Positions 9,285-31,500 of a stretch of 64,000 bases of DNA are shown piece by piece. Source of the stretch: Escherichia coli (lineage in GTDB: Bacteria; Pseudomonadota; Gammaproteobacteria; Enterobacterales; Enterobacteriaceae); the NCBI RefSeq assembly GCF_017348835.2, contig NZ_CP072315.1; one strand, given 5' to 3'. The translations under genes were made by a program, and so were the position numbers. The notes beneath the pieces were generated by a model. It was given only the letters and a program-made list of their open reading frames with translations. It made no database searches and was not told the DNA's origin. Positions within the stretch are counted from its first letter, which is position 1, and each line of letters opens with the position of its first letter.

Positions 9285-11705
9285 ATGAAACATCTCGCTT
9301 TTATTACTGCTGTAGCCGGACTCGGTATGTCTGTTCAGGCCCCAGCTCAGATATATGAATCGGCCTTTAAGGACACGAACGGTATTGAGATCCACGCCCC
9401 GTCTTCTCGTCTTATGCTTAATCCGGCATCACCGGTAACTTTGACACTTATTTCAGGTCTTGATCGTTTCGTTAATGTCAAAGTCACGAAAGACACTGGA
9501 ACTGTCATTCTTAATACTACGACTACACGGACGGGTGTATCAGACCGACTAACAGCTGCTGACGGTAGTGAGTTCTACGGCAAAAAAGTAACTTTGCCTG
9601 CTTTGGGTGAAGGCAAATTTGTCGTTCAGATAAACGTGTTAGATCTCAATCAGAAGCCTGTAGCGACCTATAACTATAACTGGCTAATTGATGTCACCCC
9701 TCCAGCGGCAAATGCTCTTACCGCTAATACTGGTTCTGGCTCTACCGCTGGTGACGTGTGGAAGCTTGGATTAGAGGCAACGGGGCAGTATGACTTCACC
9801 TCTTCGGGCGTAAGTGATGCAAATGGTATTGATAAGGGCCTAATATATATTTACAGGCAGGACGGTAGCCTCTACAGCACTACACAGATGCAGTATGACG
9901 TATCCGGCCAAAAGATGTACCACACTTACTCTAAGAATTCAGTTAAGGGAACCGGAATACCAGACAGCAACCTGGATGAAGACTTTACTGCAAAAGTTGT
10001 TATCTTCGATAACGCAGGTAATAGCCGAACGCTGCCAACTCAAAAATTTCGCTACGACAACACGCTGGGTGAGATGACACTGTGGGCCGTTCATGATCCA
10101 AATACGTCTTCCAGCGTCGTACCCGGGGTTTCTAATTATCCGGCTTACAAAGCCGGTATGGTCGTTAACGAAAACCCTATTCGATTAGTCTACCGGATCC
10201 CAAAATCTAACTACCGTGCTTATTCAGAAGGTGGGCTTCAGTTCATCAATCAATATTCCGCCCCCAAAGAGATAGCTGTAGACAGCACTTATGCTTATGT
10301 TGAAATGACTCTTCCCTATGGCTCAATTAATGGGGATATGGCTCGTATGGCGAACTTTGGCCAGTGGGGAGGGTATTATCCGTCATACAGCCTCGTTCTA
10401 AACCCATCTGCAAACCAAACGCCTGCATTTGCGGGTACCTGGGTAGATTTCCTCGATGATAAGGGGAACTGGGTTAAGTGGAAGGATTTTGAGAGTGTGG
10501 CTTCATCACGACTGCCAATTAAAATTTCCCGACTTCGTTTTAACGTTGAAGCCCGGCCCTTTGCACAGGAGATCGGCGGTAAGGCGACCTGCACCATTCC
10601 GGCAGGAAAAACCTCGTGTGAAGCGCCTGAGACGTTTGATATGGCCTTGGGTACCCAGGGCTACAATAGAATCCTTTACTTCGTTCGCAGCATCAGCAAT
10701 CCCATTTTGCGGTCTGAGCAATGGATTATGACACGCTGGAACAATAAACAACTGCCGGTAATAAACTCGATATCATATGACGAGACTAACAAGCAGCTGG
10801 ATGTACTGGCGTCACTTGAAGGCGATGGTAACTGGTTCGACTCGGTCTCATTGAGGGAATTTTATCTTTCCGATAAGAACACCGGTACCCGGATGTCACC
10901 AACAGGCGTAATCAAATCTCGTATCTCAGGTAACTACACGATTGCTTATGATTTATCCCGTCAGTCTGAAGGAAAATACAACGTTGAGGTCAACATCAGG
11001 GACTTCTTCCAGAACCAGACCAATAAAACTTTCGGAGAAATTGCTCTGGATAACACTCCTCCGACAGTGGCCATAACATTCGACGGAAAGCCGGTAAAAG
11101 ACGATACGGTAGTGTACGGCCTGGAGAACCTCAGGATCGCTCTGGCAGATAATCTGACAACCCCGAGGATAACCCGTCTTCAGCTCGTAGGTGGCCCCAC
11201 AGCTGATAACGTTGAGCTTACGTGGTCACCGGCAGGCAAAGATACATACATGCCTGAGTATCCGAGGCTGTTCCCAAATTTCGAACCATCTGAAAATTAT
11301 TCAATTAGCGTAACAGTTGCCGATAGTCAGTCGAATACCAAAACCTATACTCAGAAGTTCAGTTATCTACCGAATAACCTTGTGCAGTTACATAATCTAC
11401 GCACATTGTCGGTCAGTTCACCTCTCAAAACGACAGATGGCGTACCACTTGCGTACCTGTCCACTAACGTTCTGCGTAAGACAAATGGAGAAATTGCTAA
11501 AGGGGTCCAGAACGCAACGCTGACTGTGCGGAAGGATGCAGCCTTCGGTATTAAATTTAATGGGGCACAGGCGGCTCCAGGCGAGTCAGTTGAGGTGCAA
11601 ATAGATATGGGCCAGGGGGATAATCTTCTGTTACCCGTTTATCCTTCCGAAAATGGGAAAGTTGGCACCTCAGAATTCATGATTCAGATCGACGAGTTGA
11701 AGTAA
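9285..11705 (+). CDS. large secreted Ig-like/adhesin-like protein, ~800-aa paralog 2
   Basis: AGGGGAA RBS; signal peptide MKHLAFITAVAGLGMSVQA; conserved ISGLDRF, ATCTIPAGKTSC and C-terminal GLENLRI..LVGGP..FSYLPNNLVQL module shared with paralogs. Confidence 0.75.
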   Translation: MKHLAFITAVAGLGMSVQAPAQIYESAFKDTNGIEIHAPSSRLMLNPASPVTLTLISGLDRFVNVKVTKDTGTVILNTTTTRTGVSDRLTAADGSEFYGKKVTLPALGEGKFVVQINVLDLNQKPVATYNYNWLIDVTPPAANALTANTGSGSTAGDVWKLGLEATGQYDFTSSGVSDANGIDKGLIYIYRQDGSLYSTTQMQYDVSGQKMYHTYSKNSVKGTGIPDSNLDEDFTAKVVIFDNAGNSRTLPTQKFRYDNTLGEMTLWAVHDPNTSSSVVPGVSNYPAYKAGMVVNENPIRLVYRIPKSNYRAYSEGGLQFINQYSAPKEIAVDSTYAYVEMTLPYGSINGDMARMANFGQWGGYYPSYSLVLNPSANQTPAFAGTWVDFLDDKGNWVKWKDFESVASSRLPIKISRLRFNVEARPFAQEIGGKATCTIPAGKTSCEAPETFDMALGTQGYNRILYFVRSISNPILRSEQWIMTRWNNKQLPVINSISYDETNKQLDVLASLEGDGNWFDSVSLREFYLSDKNTGTRMSPTGVIKSRISGNYTIAYDLSRQSEGKYNVEVNIRDFFQNQTNKTFGEIALDNTPPTVAITFDGKPVKDDTVVYGLENLRIALADNLTTPRITRLQLVGGPTADNVELTWSPAGKDTYMPEYPRLFPNFEPSENYSISVTVADSQSNTKTYTQKFSYLPNNLVQLHNLRTLSVSSPLKTTDGVPLAYLSTNVLRKTNGEIAKGVQNATLTVRKDAAFGIKFNGAQAAPGESVEVQIDMGQGDNLLLPVYPSENGKVGTSEFMIQIDELK
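9584..9595. promoter_or_regulatory. palindrome site AAAAGTAACTTT (dispersed family)
   Basis: Read directly; the same site plus flank (AAAAGTWACTTTGCCTGCT) recurs at 34713. Confidence 0.3.
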
Positions 11706-11807
11706 CTACCCGGAGCCGACAGTAAAACTGACGGCTTCAATTTTACTGCCCTCCTCGACTCCGATCAGCCAGTACGTCTTCAGAGATTCGCAAGGAAGAA
11801 CCGAAAG

Positions 11808-11819
11808 AAAAGTTACTTT
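11808..11819. promoter_or_regulatory. palindrome site AAAAGTTACTTT (dispersed family)
   Basis: Read directly, about 100 bp downstream of Ig-like gene 2. Confidence 0.3.
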
Positions 11820-11859
11820 AATCGTACGTTTCCAGCGATGCTTTCAAAAGACAATGCAT

Positions 11860-12275
11860 ACTCGTTGATTACGACAATGGGAGTGAGTGTCGAACCCCTT
11901 GAGTAAGGATACCTGGTAAATATACAGCCCCGGGGATTCTCTTCCTTCAACCGGGGATGACAACGGGAGTGAGTCCGGCAACTCACACCTGTTGTCACTT
12001 CTCTGACATATCGTCATACGAGCTTACTCAAGCGCATCCACAAAGATGGGATCGTTTTGAATCTAAACTGGTACTGGTTAGCCAGTCACTTGCATCTACT
12101 CCCCCGTCGATATTTAAGTGACAATTGTAGTGATCTGCAATACTGGTGTCTCAGAAACACTGACGACGGTAGAGACTCAATACCCTAACCCCTGACAACA
12201 GAAGTGAGCTTAGAGGTGTTACGCTGCTGTCACCTAATGCTTGGGAATTGCCTGACTCACAACCATTGTCATCCG
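11860..12275. repeat. iteron-like inverted-repeat units (left remnant of iteron array split by the IS)
   Basis: Units such as TGACAACGGGAGTGAG...CTCACACCTGTTGTCA match the repeat family at 13990-15320. Confidence 0.5.
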
Positions 12276-13985
12276 GAGCTACTGATTAACGTTGAACCAC
12301 GGCAGCCTGGCGGCTGCAAATTGAAAACCGCCCCGGTTCGTCCTGTTGTTGCCGCACGCCCCGCAGAATATGTATGCTCTGAGGACCTGTTTTATTAAGG
12401 ACTCATCCCCTTATGTTGACCCGCAAAAGTATCGATACAGTTCTGCTCTCTGTTGGTGCTGAGAAGCTCTCACAACGAGAATGGGACTGGATGAAAATGC
12501 TCAAACCCATGGACCCACCACCTGCGATGGTGACGACCTCCATCCTGAAGCGCCGTGGCGATACAGCAGCCCTTACCCTGCTACAGGATACCGGGGTTTA
12601 ATCCATCCTCATGTTGTCCGGTTTTACTCCCCGCCCTCTGAAACGTCTGTTCACAGCCAACCAGTGCTGGACGTCCTTCCTGGATGCGGGCGGTCTGCGC
12701 GATATCGAGGTTGAAGCCGTCACCAAAATGCTGGCCTGCGGCACACGGATACTGGGTGTAAAAGAGTTCGGGTGTGATAACCCGGACTGTCAGCACGTAA
12801 AGTACCTGACCAACTCATGCGGCAGCCGTGCCTGCCCGTCCTGCGGAAAGAAGGCCACAGACCTGTGGACAGCAACACAGCTGAATCGTCTTCCTGACTG
12901 CGACTGGGTACATCTGGTCTTCACCCTGCCGGACACGCTGTGGCCGGTGTTCGAAAGCAACCGCTGGCTGCTGAATGACGTGTGCCGTCTGGCGGTGGAG
13001 AATCTGCTGTATGCCGCCCGAAAACGGGGGCTGGAACCCGGTATCTTCTGCGCCATCCACACGTATGGCCGTCGTCTCAACTGGCATCCGCATGTACATG
13101 TGTCTGTAACCTGTGGAGGTCTGAATAAGCATGGTCAGTGGAAAAAGCTGAGCTTCCTGAAAGACGCGATGCGTTCACGGTGGATGTGGAATATGCGGCA
13201 GCTGCTTCTGAAAGCGTGGTCAGAGGGGATGGCAATGCCGGAGTCGTTGTCACATATCACGACGGAATCACAGTGGAGAAGCCTGGTGCTGAAATCCGGC
13301 GGAAAATACTGGCATGTGTACATGTCGAAGAAGACAGCCGGAGGGCGGAATACGGCACGCTACCTGGGTCGTTATCTGAAGAAGCCACCAATAGCGGCTT
13401 CCCGACTGGCTCATTACAACGGAGGGGCAAGCCTGAGCTTCCGTTACCTGGACCACAAAACGGGAGAAACGGCGACGGAAACGCTGACACAGCGTGAGCT
13501 GGTCGCGAGGCTGAAACAGCACATCCCGGAGAAGTTTTTTAAGATGGTGAGGTACTTCGGGTTCCTTGCCAACCGTGTGTGTGGAGAGAAGCTGCCGCAG
13601 GTGTACCGTGCACTGGGGATGGATAAACCGGAACCAGTGGCGAAAGTGTGCTATGCACAAATGGTGAAACAGTTCCTGAGTCGTGACCCGTTCGAATGCG
13701 TGCTGTGTGGCTGCCGGATGGTATACCGCCGGGCCATTGCGGGGCTGAATGTATCAGGGCTGAAGAAAAACGCGCGGGATATCAGTCTACTGAGGTATAT
13801 GCCGGCCTGACACAGGCTAAGTGTGCCCGGGAATCGGTGAAAGTATAAAAAACAGCCTGTTACGGTATAAAAATCGACCATACAGAGAGGGAAACCACCG
13901 GAGTGGTGGGAAAAGCAGAAAGGCTCACGTGGCATAAGGCGTGGACAATGGTATCGACTGGTTTTTCAATTTCCTATACGTGAAC
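12276..13985 (+). mobile_element. IS91-family insertion sequence (about 1.7 kb, IS1294-like size); boundaries approximate
   Basis: Carries the HUH-Y2 transposase gene; flanked on both sides by the same iteron family; hairpin CCACCGGAGTGGTGG near the right end; GAACC at both junctions. Confidence 0.55.
12611..13810 (+). CDS. tnpA: IS91-family rolling-circle (HUH, Y2) transposase
   Basis: N-terminal zinc-binding cysteines (CPSCGKK), HUH motif WHPHVHVSV, paired tyrosines RYLGRYL. Confidence 0.8.
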   Translation: MLSGFTPRPLKRLFTANQCWTSFLDAGGLRDIEVEAVTKMLACGTRILGVKEFGCDNPDCQHVKYLTNSCGSRACPSCGKKATDLWTATQLNRLPDCDWVHLVFTLPDTLWPVFESNRWLLNDVCRLAVENLLYAARKRGLEPGIFCAIHTYGRRLNWHPHVHVSVTCGGLNKHGQWKKLSFLKDAMRSRWMWNMRQLLLKAWSEGMAMPESLSHITTESQWRSLVLKSGGKYWHVYMSKKTAGGRNTARYLGRYLKKPPIAASRLAHYNGGASLSFRYLDHKTGETATETLTQRELVARLKQHIPEKFFKMVRYFGFLANRVCGEKLPQVYRALGMDKPEPVAKVCYAQMVKQFLSRDPFECVLCGCRMVYRRAIAGLNVSGLKKNARDISLLRYMPA

Positions 13986-13989
13986 CGCT

Positions 13990-15320
13990 GGACTTTAATG
14001 ACAGTGGTAGTGATGGATAGGCTCATTTCCATTGTCGTCATTTTATCGGACAAGCCTCTTCGTCCTACAGGTTTAAGCTGACAATGGTAGTGATTGGATG
14101 ATCTCACTACTGTTGTCACTCAGTTCTTTGAGCGGACCCTTCCCTCGGTTGGTCGGCATTAACAACGGTAGTGACTCGATTGGCTCACTGCCATTGTCAT
14201 CGTGTAAATGACGTACCTTATCAGCTCAGCTGAAAGCAATGACAACGGTAGTGACTCTAATTGCTCACTGCCATTGTCGTCGTGTCTATTGAGAGCCTTA
14301 TCAGTGCACCTGAAAAGCAATGACAACGGTAGTGATTCTAATGGCTCACTACCGTTGTCACCGTGTGTATTGAGAGGATGGTCCACTTAACTGGACGTAT
14401 ATGACAATGGTAGTGACTTTAATAGCTCACTACCATTGTCGGTGTGTGAATTGAGAGGATGAGCAGCTCAGCTGTACGTCCATGACAATGGTAATGACTT
14501 AATGAGCTCACTACCGTTGTCACCCTGTTAATTAAGAGGCTCATCTGCTCTTCTGGAAGGCTATGACAACGGAAGTGACTTGCTGGGCTCACTGCCATTG
14601 TCGCCGTATGAATTGAGAGGATCATCCGCTCTTCTGGATGGCAATGACAACGGTAATGACTTAATAGGCTCACTACCATTGTCACCCTGTGAATTGAGAG
14701 GATGATCTGCTTAACCAGACGGCCATGACAACGGTAGTGACTTTCTGGGCTCAATACCGTTGTCACCCTGTGAGTTAAGAGGTTGACCCGCTCTACTGGA
14801 CGGCCATGACAACGGTAGTCACTTTCTGGGCTCACTACCGTTGTCGCCATATAGAATGAGAGGAGCATCAGCTCAACTGAACGGCAATGACTACAGTAAT
14901 GAGCTGGATGAAGCATAACCATTGACATCTGGCCCAACCGGAAGCCGTATTCGCCAATCCAATCGAGATTCACAATGGCCGTGACTCGCCGCATTAAGTT
15001 CCGGTGTCCTCCTAAAGCTGAACGCACACTCGGAGGACAATGACAATGCCAGTAAGGTACACATCATTACCATTGTCACTATAGCTACCAGAGAAGCCGG
15101 GATTTGAATGTCGATGGTAGTGAGTGGGTCAACTCACTGCCATTGTCACCCCGTTACGATATTTTCCGTTGGATGTACTGGCCAATGAAGTAAAGCGTAG
15201 AAACCGGGTGTTAACAGGTGACTCAGGAGAAAGCGTTGAATTTCGCAATCTCGATCTACATAGGGTGGTAGAGAACAATGACAACGGTAATGACTTTTGA
15301 CTCATTACCGTTGACGTGAA
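13990..15320. repeat. tandem array of about 16 units of ~80 bp, each containing a 15-bp-arm palindrome (TGACAACGGTAGTGA / TCACTACCGTTGTCA); putative Rep-binding iteron / incompatibility array
   Basis: Period about 80 bp read directly; inter-palindrome segments are also conserved (CCTGTGAATTGAGAGGATGA); adjacent to the rep gene. Confidence 0.65.
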
Positions 15321-15390
15321 AGAGCGGGCTGGGACTAACGAAAATCGAAGAAGTAATTTAGCACCCGGAGCCTAAACCGCCGGGTTAACT

Positions 15391-16479
15391 TTAGCTGGCG
15401 TTGCTGTTCTTTTTCTGGCTTCGAAGACTACGAATATAGCGCAGTTCTTCAGCGGTTAAATCATGGACGGTAAGAACATCATCGCCGTCAATCGGGTCAG
15501 CTGGTGGGCATAACTCACCTTCTAAAACAGAAGACCCTGAGTTCTCTTCTTCATCTTCAACCACTTCTAAAGGAGGCTGAGTATTGTTCAAATTCAGATC
15601 GGGATCCCGCTTATGAATCTGGAAGTATACTTTTCCGTCTTTCTTAATTTCGGTGTACTTGAGGTATCCTATCGATGCCAACTCTTCAAGAGCCTTTCTC
15701 ACGGTAGCATTCTGACTATTTGCTCGTGTTTTGAGGTTCAGACGATTTTTCAGCCGAGTAAGGGATATCGGTATAGGATTTGGCGGTAATGACTCTATGA
15801 ACGTATAGAGAGCCTGGGCGCTTTCCTTCTTGGCCAACTCCTTAATTGCCTTCAGCTGCATCAAAACCTTATGATCGTATTGATAGAGCTCGAAAATCTT
15901 AGGATCAACCTGAAGGACAACCTGATCTGATTCCGGGTCTAACAGGGCAGACTGTACCAGATGCGTTGTATAGACTTTGGACGAGTTATTACTGGTGAAC
16001 GACAAGGTAACGGATGCTAACCTGCGTAAGGAGGCGTCTATACGTTTTCTGGACGCTGTAGATGAGCGATAATTTTCAGGCGTACATAGCTTGAGGAATT
16101 CAGTGAATTTTAAGCTTATCGTGTCATTGTTAATCGGATGATTGGCATAGGTTCGAATGATGCCCATCCACGTCTTAAAATCTACTGACATATTAAGACG
16201 CTCACCGACAATTGAAATATTGGTGAACCCCTCGCTCTCCATTAAAGAGAGCGTCTGTAACTCTTTCGTTGCGTCAAAGCCAACCGTTTTATATTCCCGA
16301 TTTTGACGCCCCACACTCTTTGGTGATGGGACGAACAGCCCGAGCCGCATCAAAGCAATAGACTGCACCGTACGGTTGCTGTTAGGACGCAAAATGATGT
16401 CTTTACCTGATTCTTTCTCTCTAACAGAGAAAGCCCTGGTGACCAGGTCCTGCTGCTCAGTATCTTTCTCTTTAGTCAT
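15391..16479 (-). CDS. iteron-type plasmid replication initiator (RepA/RepE-like, IncHI/RepFIB-type)
   Basis: 362-aa protein paralogous to the ORF at 29890 (shared LRLxxF, TDFKxWxGII, YDHKxL, ESIGYL motifs); flanked by iterons on both sides. Confidence 0.7.
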   Translation of the reverse strand: MTKEKDTEQQDLVTRAFSVREKESGKDIILRPNSNRTVQSIALMRLGLFVPSPKSVGRQNREYKTVGFDATKELQTLSLMESEGFTNISIVGERLNMSVDFKTWMGIIRTYANHPINNDTISLKFTEFLKLCTPENYRSSTASRKRIDASLRRLASVTLSFTSNNSSKVYTTHLVQSALLDPESDQVVLQVDPKIFELYQYDHKVLMQLKAIKELAKKESAQALYTFIESLPPNPIPISLTRLKNRLNLKTRANSQNATVRKALEELASIGYLKYTEIKKDGKVYFQIHKRDPDLNLNNTQPPLEVVEDEEENSGSSVLEGELCPPADPIDGDDVLTVHDLTAEELRYIRSLRSQKKNSNAS

Positions 16480-17340
16480 AATAAGTTATCACTGAATGTG
16501 TAAACAGATTGGTGAATAGTAAGCCCCAGCGAACTCTATGTCACTGGATGGATCATTGTGATGATCCATATCTGTGCATAAGTTCTACCTAAAAAAACGA
16601 CTCCACTCATTAAAACTTGGCAAAAACTCTTTGCATACAATGACCTGCAACTCTTATCAACAACGGATCAGATCAAGTTAAAAAGATCTAATGAAAAGTC
16701 ACTACTATTGTCGCTCTGATCACTACTGATGTCAAAAAACTCATTACCAACGTTATAATAATCACTACTAATGTCAAAATAATCACTACTGTTGTCACTG
16801 ATCACGTCTCAGGCCTTGTGCCGTCTGGCCTGGAGGCAGCGGGGATCTCTTTTGATCTATCAGGAACACTAAGGTACTAATTATTGGAACTACCTTGTGG
16901 AAAATGGGGATAAATAAATGCTTAGTTCTTATACAGGTCTCAACTTGCCTCCCTGATAAAAACTGTCGTCAAAGCTAAATCACAGCCACAGGCATTTTCG
17001 GTGGATAAATTTTTGAGAAATAGAAGCATACATGCAGACTCGTGTCGCAAGTAATTGAAAGTAATGATTTATTTAAATAATGCGAGTCACCTTACCTCAC
17101 AGTGGAAGTTTAAGTCTAACCTCACTACCATTGTCACTTAAAATCATTACCAACGTCGAAATAGTCTCTACCATTGTCTTTTAAGTCACTCCCGTTGTCA
17201 CTTATGTCGCTACTGTTGTCAGTGACAATGCTCCAGCCCAGTAACCATGCGGCCTACAGCGTACCGGGATCTTCTTTGTACTCTCTGGCACCTTTGGGAT
17301 CATTTATTGGATCTACATGAGGGATAAAATCTTTTGACGA
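16480..17340. other. putative origin of replication (oriV) for the rep gene at 15391-16479
   Basis: Two clusters of five ~21-bp direct iterons (TCACTACnnTTGTCA; 16690-16800 and 17100-17230), each followed by a GATC-rich segment; AT-rich. Confidence 0.5.
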
Positions 17341-17448
17341 TTTCGTAGTGCAGTTATACCAGCGACTTAGCAAGACAAAAGCTGCAATTTAGTGACGAGT
17401 TACTAGTCTGCCCAACAAGAGCAATGCAGAGAAGATATGTGGTGAAAT

Positions 17449-17482
17449 GACCATGGTAGTGAGTCTAATCACTACCATGGTC
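17449..17482. repeat. perfect 14-bp-arm inverted repeat of iteron-like half-sites (GACCATGGTAGTGA-6nt-TCACTACCATGGTC)
   Basis: Read directly; candidate Rep-dimer operator or terminator for the upstream Ig-like gene. Confidence 0.45.
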
Positions 17483-17586
17483 CGCAGTAAGCGTTACTTA
17501 CGCAATGAACGTCGGACTGATTTGCAACAACATGGGCTACGGCGCATCAGAAGGCGGCCGTTGTGCTTCAGCAAAACAGCCCTGCT

Positions 17587-20043
17587 TTATTTTAATTCTT
17601 CAATGTTAATCATGAACTCAGATCTGCCAGTAAGGCCGGATACAGCAGGGAAAATAGGAAAGCTACGGCTGTCCCCGAGCCCCAAATCCAGTTGAAGCTC
17701 TTTGCTTTCACCTGGCATCGCAGAAACGCCATTTACAGTCACGCCGAATGCAGCGTCCTTACGGACAGTAAGCACTGCGTCCTGAAGCCCTGTAGCGATT
17801 GAACCATCCTTTTTACGCAGCTGGCTGGCATACAGAACAGCCAGAGCAGTATTGTCAGATGTTTTGAGAGAAGCATTGACAGCTAAGGTTTTCAGATTCT
17901 CTAGCCTGACGAGATTGTTTGGAAGGTAGTTAAATTCGACTGAGCTTTCTTTAACGTTGTTCATCTCATCTTTGGCCTGAACTGTGAGAGTGTATGTTTC
18001 GCCTTCATTAAGAGACGGAAAGATCTTGGGATAATTAGGTGCATACAGGTTGTTTCCCAGATTCACCCAAGACAATTCCACCGCATCAGAAACAGGGCCA
18101 CCGCGAAGAGTCATACGGCTTAAGGATGGTTTAGTTAGAGCATCGGTGAGCTGTATACGGACGTTCTCCAGCCCATATACTGTTACGTTTTTGCTGATCG
18201 GTTTTCCTTCGTAGCTAATACTTACAGATGGTGCTGTATTATCAACGACAACTGTTTGATAAGGGAGGTTACCGGTATTGTTGAATGTATCTTGGGCATT
18301 AATCACCACGTTATAACTGCCTTCTGGTACCTCTTTCATGTTGAACTCATACGTGTAGTTCCCAGACGCCATATTTCTACCTGTTTGTTTGCCGGTTACG
18401 CTTATTTCTGCGTTGTTACGGTTTTTATCTGACAACCAAACTCGATTTACATAAACATGGTCGAAATATGAACCATCTCCAGGTTGATTCACGTAAACCT
18501 GGAGAATGTTGGTGGTTTCATTGTAATCAAATCCAGTGACGGAGGGACCCAGTGTATGCCAGGCTATATTCTCCCATATAGGGGCAAAGAAGGTTGCTTC
18601 GGTGGTTGACCTTACTTCATAGCCACTATGAAGATAACCGGTAGTGCCATTTATAATATCCTGGGGCAAAGAGACGGTACAGGTTGTTGAGCCAGCTGGA
18701 ATACTGCATGTTGCTCCGCCAGTGATTTTTTGATCATATGGCCTGGCCTGTACATTGAATCGGATATTAGTAAGTTTTATAGGCATATCAGATGCCTTGA
18801 ACAGGTTCCAGTTTACGCTGTTGAACCATGTTCCATCAGCCTTTTGTCGTTCTATGGGTGAACTTCCCCAAGCCGGACTCTTTACAGAGGCAGGATCCCA
18901 GTTGAGCCAGCTGGCATACTGACCAAGATCTCCTCCAGACCATTGATATGTATTCACAGGTCTATAGTAGTTTCCATCTAAGGCACCCTGTGGCAGCTTA
19001 ACTTCCACGTAGACATAGGTGGCATCTTCGGAAAGGACCTGTACTCCGCCATAGTTATTGGTAATGCTCATGCCACCATTTCGATATGGCTTCCAGTTAG
19101 TTCTTGGGATACGTATAACCAACTTGTAGGGGTTTTCCAGCACTGTAAGGCCTCGTTTAAACGGGACGTATCCCGAAGAAATGCCGGGTACAACACTGGT
19201 GCTTACACGTGAGTCATGAACTGCAAATGGCGTAAATTCTCCCATTTGATCGTCATATAAAAACCGCTGGGGAGGAATGTTAAGCGTATTTCCTGCCAGG
19301 TCCGTAACGATGAAATTGAAGGTGAATTCTTCATCAAGATCACTTGAGGGCATGCCAGCCTGGGTGTTCATATCTTTAATCCACGGATAGAACGCACGTT
19401 TATTGGCTGTGTCATAACTCAGGTTATTGTCGGAGACCACAGAACCATTACTTCGTTTAATGACAAGACGGATCTTGTCAATTCCACTAGCATCCTCAAT
19501 ACCGTCTGCAAATATAGAAAACTGGCCACTACCGCCTCGGCCCAACTCCCAAAGTGGCCCAGAAAGTACCATGTCGTAACCTGCGTTTTGACTCGGATAA
19601 ATACTCTTATAGCGTGGAGGAGTTGTATCAACGATGAAATGATAAGTAGATGTGCTCACTACAGTCTGGCGAATATCCAGAGTTTCATTGACTACAGTAA
19701 AGGTCCCTTCTCCGAGCGCCGGTAGAACCATATCCTTTCCATAGTATTCTGTTCCATCGGCAGCAACGATACGATCTGCAACGCTCGTTTTGGTCGAGAC
19801 GGAGGAATACATAACCTTTTTATCGCTGTCTCGTGTGACCGTCACTCGCTCGTACCGATCAAGACCCGATATCAAGTTCAGAGTCAAAACACCAGCGGGA
19901 TTAAGATATGTTTGTGTTGCAGGTTTGATATTCCGAACAGCCTTATTGGTATCTGTAAATGAGTAGCTAAATACCTGAGCATGTGCCGAAGATACAGTAG
20001 CAAGGGCAGTTGCAACCATGCAGCCAATTAGAGTTTTACGCAT
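17587..20043 (-). CDS. large secreted Ig-like/adhesin-like protein, ~800-aa paralog 3
   Basis: GGAG RBS; signal peptide MRKTLIGCMVATALATVSSAHA; ATCSIPAGSTTC and C-terminal GLENVRI..LRGGP..FNYLPNNLVRLENLKTLAV module shared with paralogs. Confidence 0.75.
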   Translation of the reverse strand: MRKTLIGCMVATALATVSSAHAQVFSYSFTDTNKAVRNIKPATQTYLNPAGVLTLNLISGLDRYERVTVTRDSDKKVMYSSVSTKTSVADRIVAADGTEYYGKDMVLPALGEGTFTVVNETLDIRQTVVSTSTYHFIVDTTPPRYKSIYPSQNAGYDMVLSGPLWELGRGGSGQFSIFADGIEDASGIDKIRLVIKRSNGSVVSDNNLSYDTANKRAFYPWIKDMNTQAGMPSSDLDEEFTFNFIVTDLAGNTLNIPPQRFLYDDQMGEFTPFAVHDSRVSTSVVPGISSGYVPFKRGLTVLENPYKLVIRIPRTNWKPYRNGGMSITNNYGGVQVLSEDATYVYVEVKLPQGALDGNYYRPVNTYQWSGGDLGQYASWLNWDPASVKSPAWGSSPIERQKADGTWFNSVNWNLFKASDMPIKLTNIRFNVQARPYDQKITGGATCSIPAGSTTCTVSLPQDIINGTTGYLHSGYEVRSTTEATFFAPIWENIAWHTLGPSVTGFDYNETTNILQVYVNQPGDGSYFDHVYVNRVWLSDKNRNNAEISVTGKQTGRNMASGNYTYEFNMKEVPEGSYNVVINAQDTFNNTGNLPYQTVVVDNTAPSVSISYEGKPISKNVTVYGLENVRIQLTDALTKPSLSRMTLRGGPVSDAVELSWVNLGNNLYAPNYPKIFPSLNEGETYTLTVQAKDEMNNVKESSVEFNYLPNNLVRLENLKTLAVNASLKTSDNTALAVLYASQLRKKDGSIATGLQDAVLTVRKDAAFGVTVNGVSAMPGESKELQLDLGLGDSRSFPIFPAVSGLTGRSEFMINIEELK

Positions 20044-29419: not shown

Positions 29420-29889
29420 CTCCTGTTTACTACATGATACATGAACCTCAAATTTGCCAAATAGGGCTGATACATCTAAAAGGTAAACTCAAAAAATTTG
29501 CTTAATAAAATTAAAATAAAAACTGTCTTGAATAAAACAATGATAGTAGACCCTCGTTCATTTCCGTTTGCGATCTGTAGATATTGTTAAAGGAGCGCTA
29601 TTCCTTGTTTTATATGGACTTATCATTGTTTTCAACAGGATAGATCAATTCTTTAGATCACTAAAGATCAATAGAGTTCAAGTAAAGATCACGGCATCTT
29701 TAACTCATTGATTATAGTGACTTTATGAAAGGATCCGGCATTCGGATGCATGCGAAAAGCATTTGAATGAATAAGGAAGGCATTTACTGGAATGCTTATG
29801 GCATTTAGGTTAATGCGTAAAAAGCATTTGCAAGAATATGTTATAAACAGTTTGCCAAATGAAAATCTTATCACCGACGAGTTAAGTTA
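29420..29889. other. putative oriV / rep promoter region of second replicon
   Basis: Four GATC sites within about 50 bp (29651-29700) and four ~21-bp direct repeats of type GCATTTnnnTGAATG (29735-29860) upstream of rep. Confidence 0.5.
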
Positions 29890-30765
29890 ATGATTAAAAA
29901 CAACGAGTTAATCCATCCTTTTGACGTAACCAGTAATGAATCAGGTAAGACTTATCAACTGACGCCTAACTCGTCCAAGTCGGTTCAGCCCGTGGCCCTG
30001 TTGAGATTGAGTGTATTTACCCCTGTCGGCACAAAAGAAAACCGCGACCGAAACTTTGAAGTTGATGCCTCTGATGAGCTTTCGTGTATGGAAATTGCAA
30101 GATCGGAGGGTTATGACGACATCAAGATAACTGGTGTCAAACTATCTATGTCTACCGACTTTAAGTGCTGGCTCGGGATCATCATGGCTTTCAGTAAATA
30201 TGGTTTTACTTCCGAGAAGATTACCCTGACTTTTAACGAGTTTGCGAAGATGTGTGGTATCAGTTCAACAAACATCAACAAACGAACTCGTGCGCGCTTT
30301 AAAGAGTCATTAATGAACCTTGCATCGGTAGTGCTTGCCTTCTCAGACTCTCGGAGTGGTCGGTTCACAGTAACGCATCTGGTGCAGAAGGCTATGATTG
30401 ATCCAAAAAGCGATACTGTTGAGTTGGTTGGGGATCCTTCTATGTGGGAACTGTATCGTTACGACCATAAGACATTGTTAAGCCTTCAGGTTCTATACAT
30501 TTTGGCTAAAAAAGAAGCTGCGCAATCTCTCTATATTTATTTTGAAGCAATGCCAGCTGGTACGTTGTTCGTTAATATGAAACGGTTGAGGGAAAGGTTG
30601 CTTCTTACAACCCCTATTCGTACGCAAAACCAGATAATTCGTAAAGCAATGCGGGAACTTGAATCTATCGGATATCTCGATTATCAAGAAGTTAAGAAAG
30701 GTCGCGACATACAATTTCAGATCTTCAAAAGAAGCCCTAAGCTGGCCCTCGCCAAACAAGGTTGA
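29890..30765 (+). CDS. iteron-type plasmid replication initiator, second paralog (RepFIB/RepHI-like)
   Basis: 291-aa protein paralogous to the Rep at 15391; iterons upstream and downstream. Confidence 0.7.
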   Translation: MIKNNELIHPFDVTSNESGKTYQLTPNSSKSVQPVALLRLSVFTPVGTKENRDRNFEVDASDELSCMEIARSEGYDDIKITGVKLSMSTDFKCWLGIIMAFSKYGFTSEKITLTFNEFAKMCGISSTNINKRTRARFKESLMNLASVVLAFSDSRSGRFTVTHLVQKAMIDPKSDTVELVGDPSMWELYRYDHKTLLSLQVLYILAKKEAAQSLYIYFEAMPAGTLFVNMKRLRERLLLTTPIRTQNQIIRKAMRELESIGYLDYQEVKKGRDIQFQIFKRSPKLALAKQG

Positions 30766-30874
30766 AAGCTACCAGGTATGCACTGGTTATAACATGCTGA
30801 AAAATAAGTTATTTATCAGTGCTATGCTTAGTGCTTCTTTTACTACTGGTCTTACATCTCGGCTTAATGTGCAA

Positions 30875-30887
30875 AAAAGTAACTTTT
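30875..30887. promoter_or_regulatory. palindrome site AAAAGTAACTTTT (dispersed family)
   Basis: Exact 13-bp palindrome about 110 bp downstream of rep. Confidence 0.35.
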
Positions 30888-30989
30888 CAAACGAACTCCT
30901 GACTATTCATCTGTATGCCTTTCTGGCTCAAGCGTACATGCTAGCCCATTCATTAAATGCCGTGGAGCAAGATGGTTTCGTGCGCACTC

Positions 30990-31500
30990 TATTCACGTGA
31001 ATGCCTTTTGTGGATTACGCCTCTTACATTCATACAAATGCTTTTGATGTCGGTATCCCAAAAAATCATTCATTGAAATGCTTTTGTTTGCCACTGTATC
31101 CCGAGCATAGCTATGCAGTGGTATAAAAAGGCATTTTGGTGAATGGCATTAGGTCGAATGACACACAGTACAGCTTTGTTAAGAGCGAGAATGGTCCAAG
31201 ACATCTATGACATTGGGCATCAGAAGGACTATGTGTTTGATATGAGATCAAAAAAATATCAGAAGCATCACAACTCCAATGGCATTCAAAGAAATGCCTT
31301 TGTTTTGTTAGTACACCAAACAACCCAAAATTCATGCAGTTATATCAAAGACTCATTCGCAAAAGGACTCAGCCAGAAAGCATTTGCTTAAATAGCATTG
31401 GCCAAAAGCATTCGAATGAATGATGTTCATATGGACAAGACAAAGTCCCACTCACGCCCAGAGGTGTAAAAGGCATTTAGATGAATGACGCACCGGCCGA
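30990..31500. repeat. downstream iteron cluster of second replicon (AAATGCTTTTG / AAAGGCATTT repeats)
   Basis: Multiple ~20-bp repeats read directly, inverted relative to the upstream set. Confidence 0.5.

What the first reader, a model, noticed from the sequence alone, without database searches (positions are those of the whole stretch)
11860..15320. Palindromic ~80-bp iteron array interrupted by an IS91-family element
About 16 tandem units, each holding a 15-bp-arm palindrome of iteron half-sites (TGACAACGGTAGTGA / TCACTACCGTTGTCA), lie downstream of rep. The same unit family reappears at 11860-12275 on the far side of the IS91-like element. The IS therefore appears to have inserted into a once-continuous ~1.9-kb array, and may have altered copy control or incompatibility. 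Palindromic rather than direct iterons suggest binding by Rep dimers.
Basis: partly seen in the sequence, partly recalled or inferred. Interest (0 to 1): 0.45.

Follow-up and report, generated by a model that had tools for sequence, protein, structure and literature searches.

The report
IncHI2 replication-control repeats split by IS1294
This is the already described array of long repeats beside the RepHI2 replication gene of IncHI2 (R478-type) resistance plasmids, most likely a copy-number brake, with a common IS1294 insertion sequence in its weak outer edge; it is ordinary.

Summary
The window is IncHI2 plasmid backbone. Downstream of repHI2 (15391-16479, minus strand) lies a roughly 2-kb field of 37 iteron-like 15-mers. 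These have the same core as the nine or ten direct 21-bp-spaced iterons upstream of rep. Most form head-to-head pairs with a 10-bp gap. Ten regular pairs, plus two degenerate flanking units, repeat every 80-81 bp.

The interrupting element (12294-13981, 1688 bp) matches IS1294 of pHN7A8 at every base. It was inserted without duplication next to a GTTC target. R478 and most IncHI2 plasmids have the intact site, so the two blocks were once contiguous.

The array corresponds to the published "twelve 80-81-bp iterons" of R478 RepHI2A. RepHI2 is 41% identical to P1 RepA. The layout (origin iterons, rep, downstream iterons) mirrors P1 incC-repA-incA. The best reading is therefore an expanded incA-like negative control locus acting by Rep titration and handcuffing.

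The "Rep dimer" idea is untested and not favoured, because each arm is a complete iteron core and the arms do not covary. The fixed head-to-head spacing persists in two diverged lineages that lack the 81-bp period. This is the only mildly new point.

The IS moves seven weak sites 1.7 kb further away, and the plasmid carries a second replicon, so little effect is expected. Novelty: already known. Interest is low.

The parts
11872..12271 (.). Left (distal) block of the Rep-site field. It holds 7 iteron-like 15-mers: 11872-, 11958-/11983+ (the only clear pair), 12119-, 12161-, 12193- and 12257+. Spacing is irregular.
   Evidence: The block is contiguous with the right block in IS-free plasmids.
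12294..13981 (+). IS1294 (IS91 family), 1688 bp. The terIS end is at 12294 and begins GAAC, which reads GTTC on the minus strand. The small ORF is at 12413-12601, tnpA at 12611-13810, and the oriIS end at 13981 (...TTTCCTATACGT).
   Evidence: Zero mismatches to the IS1294 copy of pHN7A8 (named IS1294 in PMC6052338). Ends were defined from copies in other contexts and from the empty site.
13982..13985 (-). Target tetranucleotide 5'-GTTC (minus strand) abutting oriIS. There is no target-site duplication.
   Evidence: The IS1294 target rule is quoted in PMC13181058.
13999..14968 (.). Twelve units of 80-81 bp. Ten regular units span 14079-14887. Each regular unit is TGACAACGGTAGTGA, then 10 unconserved bases, then TCACTACCGTTGTCA, then a 41-bp spacer. 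Degenerate units lie at 13999 and 14888. This corresponds to the 'long iterons' of R478 RepHI2A.
   Evidence: R478 has the same array with one extra unit.
14970..15316 (.). Rep-proximal irregular sites and pairs: 14970-, 15041-/15064+, 15109-/15134+ and 15279-/15302+. The last pair also scores as terminator-like on the rep strand.
15391..16479 (-). repHI2, encoding a 362-aa iteron-type initiator. It is a homologue of P1 RepA and RepFIB RepA.
   Evidence: Annotated in identical records. It is 41% identical to P1 RepA with E 4e-61 and about 50% identical to RepFIB-type RepA. Homologues carry PF01051. The predicted fold matches RctB domains 2-3 and RepE.
16699..16797 (+). Origin-side iteron cluster 1: five direct repeats at 21-bp spacing.
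16798..17121 (.). A+T-rich spacer (about 39-41% G+C) between the two iteron clusters. DnaA-box-like sites lie at 16896, 16905 and 17000. The surrounding 16480-17586 region is rich in GATC. This is the probable site of origin opening.
17122..17221 (+). Origin-side iteron cluster 2: four direct repeats on a 21-bp register.
17448..17483 (.). Isolated head-to-head iteron-like pair with a 6-bp gap, beyond the origin clusters.

Best explanation
The repeats are the long-iteron array of the RepHI2A replicon of IncHI2 plasmids. The array is a roughly 2-kb field of about 37 binding sites for the initiator RepHI2, placed just beyond the 3' end of rep. It is the counterpart of incA in the P1 plasmid prophage.

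Shown here:
- The sites share the 15-bp core of the origin iterons.
- They are far more conserved than the DNA between them.
- Most are arranged as head-to-head pairs with a 10 +/- 1-bp gap.
- In the IncHI2 lineage one such pair plus its spacer was amplified into an 81-bp tandem array.

Inferred from the P1/RepFIB family:
- RepHI2 monomers occupy these sites.
- The loaded array titrates initiator.
- It pairs with Rep bound at the origin iterons (16699-17221) in cis or in trans ('handcuffing').
- This holds the roughly 240-kb plasmid at low copy number and expresses incompatibility.

IS1294 then inserted by rolling-circle transposition next to a GTTC in a spacer near the distal end of the field. 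It moved seven weak sites 1.7 kb away. This probably has little effect on control.
For: Identity of the locus:
- The region is 100% identical to IncHI2 plasmids annotated with repHI2.
- R478 has the same intergenic region at about 98.5% identity, with one extra 81-bp unit and an intact insertion site.
- The literature describes twelve 80-81-bp iterons near repHI2 in R478 (PMC8490738, citing Gilmour 2004 and Page 2001; also PMC4980987).

Sites:
- 46 hits against 1.4 expected.
- Array sites and origin iterons have the same information profile across the 15-bp core.
- Within units, arms are 91-95% conserved against 73-76% for the gap and spacer.
- In two lineages with 86-88% identical Rep (L003, L014), 27-33 sites again fill the 1.4 kb downstream of rep. 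They form 8-10 head-to-head pairs at 21-26 bp, while the gap and spacer sequences and the 81-bp period are not conserved.

Family:
- RepHI2 is 41% identical to P1 RepA.
- The annotated P1 layout is oriR/incC (5 iterons), repA, then incA (9 RepA-binding iterons in both orientations) directly after repA.
- The second replicon in the window has the same layout.

Origin elsewhere:
- DnaA-like boxes, a GATC cluster (10.8 per kb against 3.4) and the lowest G+C all lie upstream of rep. The array has no DnaA-like box.

IS:
-.
Against: - No binding, copy-number or incompatibility data could be obtained here, and Page et al. 2001 could not be read.
- One secondary source says cloning experiments 'suggested functional activity' of the long iterons, which could mean a positive role.
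- The array is much larger than P1 incA (about 37 sites against 9).
- Its units are not phased with the helical repeat (81 bp is about 7.7 turns), whereas P1 incA sites are spaced at 30-41 bp.
- The strict head-to-head pairing has no counterpart in P1 incA, so the mechanism may differ in detail.
Confidence: 0.7

Rival explanations
1. The palindromes are sites for pre-formed RepHI2 dimers, as in the inverted-repeat operators of F RepE or pPS10 RepA. On this reading the array is a dimer sink or an autoregulatory site rather than a set of monomer-type iterons.
For: - The head-to-head geometry with a fixed 10 +/- 1-bp gap is conserved in three lineages while the gap sequence is not. This points to a two-fold symmetric protein complex.
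- The predicted fold resembles the RepE dimer-operator complex chain 2z9o.
Against: - Each arm is a complete 15-bp iteron core with the same information profile as the origin iterons, not a partial iteron.
- The arms are 25 bp centre to centre, which by my inference looks far for a compact dimer contacting DNA only through its C-terminal winged-helix domains.
- The array lies beyond the rep stop codon, not at the rep promoter.
- In the P1 RepA family, dimers are the inactive form and need chaperones to yield DNA-binding monomers (established knowledge, not tested here).
Confidence: 0.15
2. The array is a positive replication element. It would be part of the origin or an alternative origin or enhancer of RepHI2A, rather than a brake.
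For: PMC8490738 reports that cloning experiments (Page 2001) 'suggested functional activity' of the long iterons. The sites are bona fide iteron cores.
Against: - The array contains no DnaA-box-like site and no A+T-rich stretch (47% G+C).
- Its GATC density is ordinary. All of these origin features lie upstream of rep.
- In the homologous P1 and RepFIB systems the downstream iterons are dispensable for replication and inhibitory (established knowledge).
- One plasmid (L012) carries IS1294 at the window-equivalent of position 15273, which separates rep from almost the whole array.
Confidence: 0.08
3. The palindromes matter as DNA structure rather than as protein sites. They might form cruciforms or hairpins that act as transcription terminators, fork barriers or single-strand signals.
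For: Each unit can form a stem of about 15 bp. The rep-proximal pair at 15279-15316 scores as terminator-like on the rep strand.
Against: - The arms do not covary. The two arms of a unit differ at 3.9 positions on average, against 4.1 for arms drawn from different units (permutation P = 0.31; P = 0.85 for the regular units).
- Variation sits at the same tolerated positions as in the direct origin iterons.
- Only one of about 15 pairs is followed by a T run.
Confidence: 0.03
4. The array is a partition centromere or plasmid-pairing site bound by a segregation protein.
For: Long arrays of repeated inverted motifs are typical of plasmid centromeres.
Against: - The motif is the rep-proximal iteron itself.
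- No partition genes adjoin the array. The neighbours are rep and two Ig-like-domain genes.
- The literature places IncHI2 parAB and parMR elsewhere (PMC5955447).
Confidence: 0.04

Closest known systems
RepHI2A replicon of IncHI2 reference plasmid R478 ('long iterons' of 76-81 bp; Page, Whelan & Colleran 2001; Gilmour et al. 2004)
   Same: It is the same locus. repHI2 is about 99% identical, and the rep-to-Ig-like-gene intergenic region aligns at about 98.5%. The 80-81-bp period and the roughly 12 units are shared.
   Different: The window has one 81-bp unit fewer and carries IS1294 at 12294-13981, where R478 has the empty site. I could not check whether the original papers describe each long repeat as two inverted copies of the short origin iteron.
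incA copy-control locus of the P1 plasmid prophage (also the downstream repeats of RepFIB)
   Same: The initiators are homologous (41% identity). In both, iterons identical to those of the origin lie directly beyond the 3' end of rep and occur in both orientations. The origin, with DnaA boxes and GATC sites, is upstream of rep in both.
   Different: P1 has 9 sites in 285 bp, spaced 30-41 bp, as one block of 3 followed by one block of 6 in the opposite orientation. Here about 37 sites span 2 kb, mostly as head-to-head pairs with a 10-bp gap, amplified as an 81-bp tandem unit. Function here is inferred, not shown.
IS1294 (IS91 family, rolling-circle transposition)
   Same: The element is identical over 1688 bp to the pHN7A8 copy. 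It has an HUH/Y2 transposase with a zinc-binding N-terminus and no inverted repeats. There is no target duplication. The oriIS end lies next to 5'-GTTC, and the terIS end finishes in GTTC.
   Different: Nothing differs in the element itself. Only the insertion site is unusual, being shared with a single PLSDB record, NZ_CP090540.
Inverted-repeat operators bound by Rep dimers (F RepE, pPS10 RepA)
   Same: Both involve inverted copies of iteron sequence and an initiator of the dual winged-helix class.
   Different: Those operators overlap the rep promoter, occur once, and have partial-iteron arms. Here the arms are full cores, the pairs number about 15, and they lie downstream of the gene.
[quoted passage not shown]
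   Same: Both are long tandem repeats of about 80 bp, in about ten copies, hundreds of bp from a rep gene of a large conjugative plasmid.
   Different: The authors report no significant sequence similarity between the two plasmids. Those repeats lie upstream of rep. I did not examine their internal structure.

Membership tests
P1 RepA / RepFIB-type iteron replicon with a downstream (incA-like) control locus | Initiator homologous to P1 RepA | tested here: met
   tblastn gives 41.3% identity over 74% of RepHI2 with E 4e-61 to P1 repA. Identity to RepFIB, pHCM2 and SSU5 RepA is about 50%. Homologues at 50-62% identity carry PF01051. RepHI2 itself scores below Pfam and NCBIfam thresholds.
P1 RepA / RepFIB-type iteron replicon with a downstream (incA-like) control locus | Dual winged-helix initiator fold | tested here: met
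   The AlphaFold2 model has mean pLDDT 72.5. The best Foldseek PDB hits are RctB domains 2-3 (E 3e-7) and the RepE dimer 2z9o (E 3e-4); weaker hits are the WH1 domain 6h24 (E 0.016) and TrfA (E 0.078). TM-scores are moderate at 0.4-0.5. A sequence profile found no PDB hit.
P1 RepA / RepFIB-type iteron replicon with a downstream (incA-like) control locus | Direct iterons with DnaA boxes, GATC sites and an A+T-rich region upstream of rep | tested here: met
   Five plus four direct sites lie on a 21-bp register at 16699-16797 and 17122-17221. There are 5 DnaA-like boxes (one mismatch each). GATC density is 10.8 per kb against 3.4. G+C is 0.39-0.41.
P1 RepA / RepFIB-type iteron replicon with a downstream (incA-like) control locus | Further copies of the same iteron directly downstream of rep | tested here: met
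   30 sites at 13999-15316 and 7 at 11872-12271 have the same core and information profile as the origin iterons.
P1 RepA / RepFIB-type iteron replicon with a downstream (incA-like) control locus | The downstream iterons bind Rep, are dispensable for replication, lower copy number and exert incompatibility | not testable with these tools
   This needs EMSA or footprinting, mini-replicon deletions and incompatibility tests. Page et al. 2001 is not in the held library.
R478 RepHI2A long-iteron array | Same locus and sequence as in R478, with an 80-81-bp period and about 12 copies | tested here: met
   The global alignment with NC_005211 has 1966 identical columns of 2078. The only long gap is one 81-bp unit. 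TRF gives period 81. The 12 aligned units are.
IS1294 (IS91 family) | HUH/Y2 transposase with a zinc-binding N-terminal domain | tested here: met
   PF04986 scores E 1e-57 and PF14319 scores E 2e-21. NF033538 transpos_IS91 scores 309 bits against a cutoff of 125.
IS1294 (IS91 family) | Sequence identity to a copy named IS1294 in the literature | tested here: met
   1688 of 1688 bases are identical to the copy interrupting Tn2 tnpR in pHN7A8. That copy is called IS1294 in PMC6052338. The protein accessions are the same: WP_000948429.1 and WP_000957857.1.
IS1294 (IS91 family) | No terminal inverted repeats, no target duplication, oriIS next to 5'-GTTC or CTTG, terIS ending in GTTC | tested here: met
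   The empty site and the filled site differ by exactly 1688 bp with no duplication. On the minus strand the filled site reads GGTTC|ACGTATAGG...GCCGTGGTTC|AACG. The rules are quoted in PMC13181058.
Rep-dimer-bound inverted-repeat operator (F RepE / pPS10 RepA type) | Inverted repeat overlaps the rep promoter | tested here: not met
   All pairs of the array lie at least 75 bp beyond the rep stop codon at 15391. The rep start codon is at 16479, on the other side of the gene.
Rep-dimer-bound inverted-repeat operator (F RepE / pPS10 RepA type) | Arms are partial iterons (only the part read by the C-terminal winged-helix domain) | tested here: not met
   The arms carry the whole 15-bp core with information content equal to that of the origin iterons.
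Rep-dimer-bound inverted-repeat operator (F RepE / pPS10 RepA type) | Bound by Rep dimers | not testable with these tools
   This needs stoichiometry measurements with purified protein.
Plasmid partition centromere | Adjacent partition genes and a motif distinct from the iterons | tested here: not met
   The neighbouring genes are repHI2 and two Ig-like-domain genes. The motif is the iteron core.

The most novel reading that the evidence does not exclude
The head-to-head iteron pair with a fixed 10 +/- 1-bp gap may be a selected module in its own right. It is kept in three lineages whose Rep proteins differ by 12-15%, while the gap, the spacer and the periodicity all change. Such a module could bind a two-fold symmetric RepHI2-RepHI2 complex that does not form on the direct origin iterons. 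An array of about 15 such complexes would then be a dedicated high-capacity handcuffing or sequestration platform. That would make it a variant of iteron control distinct from P1 incA.
Probability: 0.3. Interest if true: 0.4.

Novelty: already known. Interest (0 to 1): 0.15.

Why it matters
IncHI2 plasmids are major carriers of mcr, ESBL and carbapenemase genes, so their copy-number control and incompatibility determinants have practical relevance. However, this array has been in the literature since the R478 work, and IS1294 is a very common element.

The added value here is modest:
- The IS ends are mapped exactly.
- The two blocks are shown to be contiguous in R478.
- The long 'iterons' are shown to be composite: two full iteron cores, head to head, plus a lineage-specific spacer.
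- The pair geometry, not the 81-bp unit, is what is conserved.
- IS1294 has hit this replicon neighbourhood repeatedly in other IncHI2 plasmids.

Tried and rejected
- Pfam and NCBIfam scans of RepHI2 found no family, even at E up to 10.
- Sequence and profile searches of the PDB found nothing meaningful. Only the predicted fold linked RepHI2 to RctB and RepE.
- Page et al. 2001 is not held. Other papers only cite it.
- I looked for co-variation between iteron sequence and Rep in diverged relatives. The 86-88% relatives keep the same iteron core, so no co-variation test was possible. The roughly 60% relatives (SSU5/pHCM2-like, L013 and L005) use a different iteron (CCACTATAG...). L013 has no room for a downstream array, because the next gene starts 75 bp after rep.
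- The conserved spacer motif GAATTGAGAGGAT is absent from L003 and L014, so I rejected it as a second protein site. It reflects shared descent of the units.
- ORF 14419-15027 (202 aa, minus strand) is the array read in frame, since 81 bp equals 27 codons. It has no counterpart in L003 or L014, so I rejected it as a gene.
- ORF 17447-17695 starts inside the isolated inverted pair. It is unrelated to the same-length ORFs of L003 and L014 (7-8% aa identity), so I rejected it.
- GAAC/GTTC density in the array (4.3 per kb) is below the window average (7.5 per kb). The array is therefore not an IS1294 hotspot by target density.
Full report
WHAT THE WINDOW IS

The region 11700-17500 is 100% identical to IncHI2 plasmids of Salmonella and E. 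coli. In those records the 362-aa gene at 15391-16479 (minus strand) is annotated as the IncHI-type initiator RepHI2. Two paralogous Ig-like-domain genes flank it (9285-11705 plus strand, 17587-20043 minus strand). They are 41% identical, and their 3' ends point at the replicon.

CHECK OF THE OBSERVATION

The 15-mer TCACTACCGTTGTCA with up to 3 mismatches occurs 46 times in the window. Dinucleotide-preserving shuffles give 1.4 expected, with a maximum of 4. Of the 46 hits, 44 lie between 11872 and 17483.

Tandem Repeats Finder reports an 81-bp array at 14155-14902 with 9.3 copies, 76% matches and a 243-bp super-period.

A position-weight map gives the following:
- Five plus four direct sites on a 21-bp register upstream of rep (16699-16797 and 17122-17221).
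- Thirty sites beyond the rep stop codon (13999-15316).
- Seven sites at 11872-12271.
- One isolated inverted pair at 17448-17483.

In the right block the sites form head-to-head pairs: TGACAACGGTAGTGA, then 10 bases, then TCACTACCGTTGTCA. Ten regular pairs repeat every 80-81 bp (14079-14887). A degenerate unit flanks them on each side. Three irregular pairs lie closer to rep.

The left block belongs to the same site family but is irregular, with a single clear pair.

THE INSERTION

An IS-free relative (pAMSH1, L001) is identical on both sides and lacks exactly 1688 bp. There is a 6-bp junction ambiguity (TGAACC). About 1000 copies of the element in unrelated plasmid contexts start at window position 12293 or 12294 and end no earlier than 13981. 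This fixes the element at 12294-13981.

That segment is identical at all 1688 positions to the copy in pHN7A8, which the literature names IS1294 (PMC6052338). The records share the same transposase and small-ORF protein accessions.

Read on the minus strand, the filled site is GGTTC|ACGTATAGG...GCCGTGGTTC|AACG. This shows a GTTC target abutting oriIS, a terIS that ends in GTTC, no inverted repeats and no duplication. These are the rules given for IS1294 (PMC13181058). The transposase has the Y2 and zinc-binding domains of the IS91 family.

The reference plasmid R478 carries the uninterrupted sequence ...ACGTT|GAACCGCTGG.... The two repeat blocks were therefore one continuous 1997-bp intergenic field. 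The IS entered a spacer between the site at 12257 and the site at 13999, at the degenerate distal edge of the field.

The exact junction occurs in only one PLSDB record, NZ_CP090540. Other IncHI2 plasmids carry independent IS1294 insertions nearby, at window-equivalent positions 10877, about 11798, 15273, 16925 and 17982. The one at 16925 lies between the two origin iteron clusters and is present in three records. Target density does not explain this, since GAAC/GTTC is rarer in the array than in the window overall.

WHAT THE ARRAY IS

RepHI2 is 41% identical to P1 RepA (E 4e-61) and about 50% identical to RepFIB-type RepA. Its homologues at 50-62% identity carry Pfam PF01051. Its predicted structure (mean pLDDT 72.5) best matches RctB domains 2-3 and F RepE.

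The annotated P1 genome shows this order: oriR with DnaA box, Dam sites and five incC iterons; then repA; then nine RepA-binding incA iterons directly after repA, three in one orientation and six in the other.

The window has the same order:
- DnaA-like boxes, a GATC cluster (10.8 per kb against 3.4) and the lowest G+C lie with the direct iterons upstream of rep.
- The array has no DnaA-like box and ordinary composition.

The second replicon in the window (29890-30765, 43% identical to RepHI2) repeats the pattern with its own iteron, AAAAGCATTTGAATGAAT.

The array is therefore the positional and sequence counterpart of incA, expanded about fourfold.

WHAT IS SELECTED

- Among the regular units, the arms are 91-95% conserved. 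The 10-bp gap is 73% conserved and the 41-bp spacer 76%.
- Array sites and origin iterons have the same information profile over all 15 positions. Each arm is thus a complete iteron core.
- The two arms of a unit are no more alike than arms from different units (3.9 against 4.1 differences, permutation P = 0.31). Complementarity, and hence hairpin or cruciform formation, is not what is maintained.
- Two lineages have Rep 86% and 88% identical (Citrobacter plasmid L003 and metagenomic contig L014). In both, the 1.4 kb downstream of rep again holds 33 and 27 sites, with 10 and 8 head-to-head pairs at 21-26 bp. The gap and spacer sequences, the conserved IncHI2 spacer motif and the 81-bp period are all absent.
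- The conserved entity is therefore the site and the head-to-head pair. The 81-bp tandem array is an IncHI2-specific amplification, still polymorphic by one unit between the window and R478 or L004.

MECHANISM

The best-supported reading is an incA-like negative control locus. RepHI2 bound to the array titrates initiator and pairs with Rep at the origin iterons (handcuffing). This limits initiation and causes incompatibility. That step is inferred from the P1/RepFIB family and was not shown here.

- The arms are full cores rather than partial iterons.
- The array is not at the rep promoter.
- In the P1 family the monomer is the DNA-binding form (established knowledge).

The fixed spacing does suggest some two-fold symmetric Rep-Rep contact, which only biochemistry can resolve.

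For the IS, I expect little consequence. It displaces 7 weak sites by 1.7 kb and leaves 30 sites next to rep. The plasmid has a second replicon. Sister plasmids tolerate IS1294 in more sensitive positions. If terIS is skipped, one-ended transposition would carry the left block and the adjacent Ig-like gene, not rep. This is an inference from the IS1294 behaviour described in PMC13181058 and PMC5043248.

COMPARISON WITH WHAT IS KNOWN

The array is the published long-iteron set of R478 RepHI2A. It is described as 'twelve 80-81 bp iterons' about 500 bp from repHI2, citing Gilmour 2004 and Page 2001 (PMC8490738), and as 'up to 76-bp' iterons (PMC4980987).

PMC8490738 places the long iterons next to the rep start codon. 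In the sequence they lie beyond the stop codon.

A comparable case exists in IncHI1 plasmid R27. Its downstream incC repeats are bound by the initiator, the repeats but not their spacers are conserved, and they are needed for plasmid stability (PMC4853401).

VERDICT

The feature itself is already known and the insertion is ordinary. The only mildly new point is that the long repeats are composite and that the conserved element is the head-to-head pair geometry rather than the 81-bp unit.

Noticed in passing
window 29752-31487: A second P1-RepA-type replicon. Its rep gene is at 29890-30765 (plus strand, 291 aa, 43% identical to RepHI2) and matches the first gene of the R478 record. It has its own iteron, AAAAGCATTTGAATGAAT, upstream (29752-29837) and in both orientations downstream (30903-31487). 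This is probably RepHI1A(R478), also called repHI2C.
   Followed up: partly
window 9285-11705 (+) and 17587-20043 (-): Two paralogous Ig-like-domain genes (41% identity, same Pfam architecture DUF4165 + Big_3_2 + Big_3_3). They converge on the RepHI2 replicon, so the replicon sits between their 3' ends.
   Followed up: partly
L008-L012 (window-equivalent 10877, ~11798, 15273, 16925, 17982): Other IncHI2 plasmids carry independent IS1294 insertions around repHI2. One lies between the two origin iteron clusters and is present in three records. One lies just downstream of rep and cuts off nearly the whole array (p602A1-220K-mcr3, which MOB-suite no longer types as IncHI2A). This suggests RepHI2A can be disabled when the second replicon is present.
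   Followed up: partly
window 13943-13957: An iteron-like 15-mer (TCGATACCATTGTCC on the minus strand) lies inside the oriIS end of IS1294. Its PWM score of 13.2 is above every score in 57 kb of background. It is probably chance, but it blurs the apparent edge of the array.
   Followed up: no
window 15279-15316: The rep-proximal inverted pair (8-bp gap) is followed by a T-rich tail on the rep strand and scores as an intrinsic-terminator-like site about 75-110 bp after the rep stop codon. It may double as the rep terminator.
   Followed up: no
window 17448-17483: An isolated head-to-head iteron-like pair with a 6-bp gap, beyond the second origin iteron cluster. L003 (5259/5284) and L014 (7283/7308) each have an isolated pair in the opposite (tail-to-tail) arrangement about 800 bp beyond their arrays. 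Its function is unknown.
   Followed up: partly
window 14419-15027 (-): A 202-aa ORF that is annotated as a hypothetical protein in some records. It is the 81-bp array read in frame (27-residue repeats) and has no counterpart in L003 or L014. It is almost certainly spurious.
   Followed up: yes
window 14162-14902; R478 (L016) and L004: The array has a 243-bp (three-unit) super-period. It differs from R478 and from an Enterobacter IncHI2 plasmid by exactly one 81-bp unit, which indicates ongoing unit gain and loss.
   Followed up: partly
each 15-mer site, e.g. window 14346-14360: The iteron core is itself quasi-palindromic (T-S-A-C-W-A-C-S-G-T-W-G-T-S-A, with 10 of 15 positions self-complementary). 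This may reflect the pseudo-two-fold arrangement of the two winged-helix domains of a Rep monomer.
   Followed up: no
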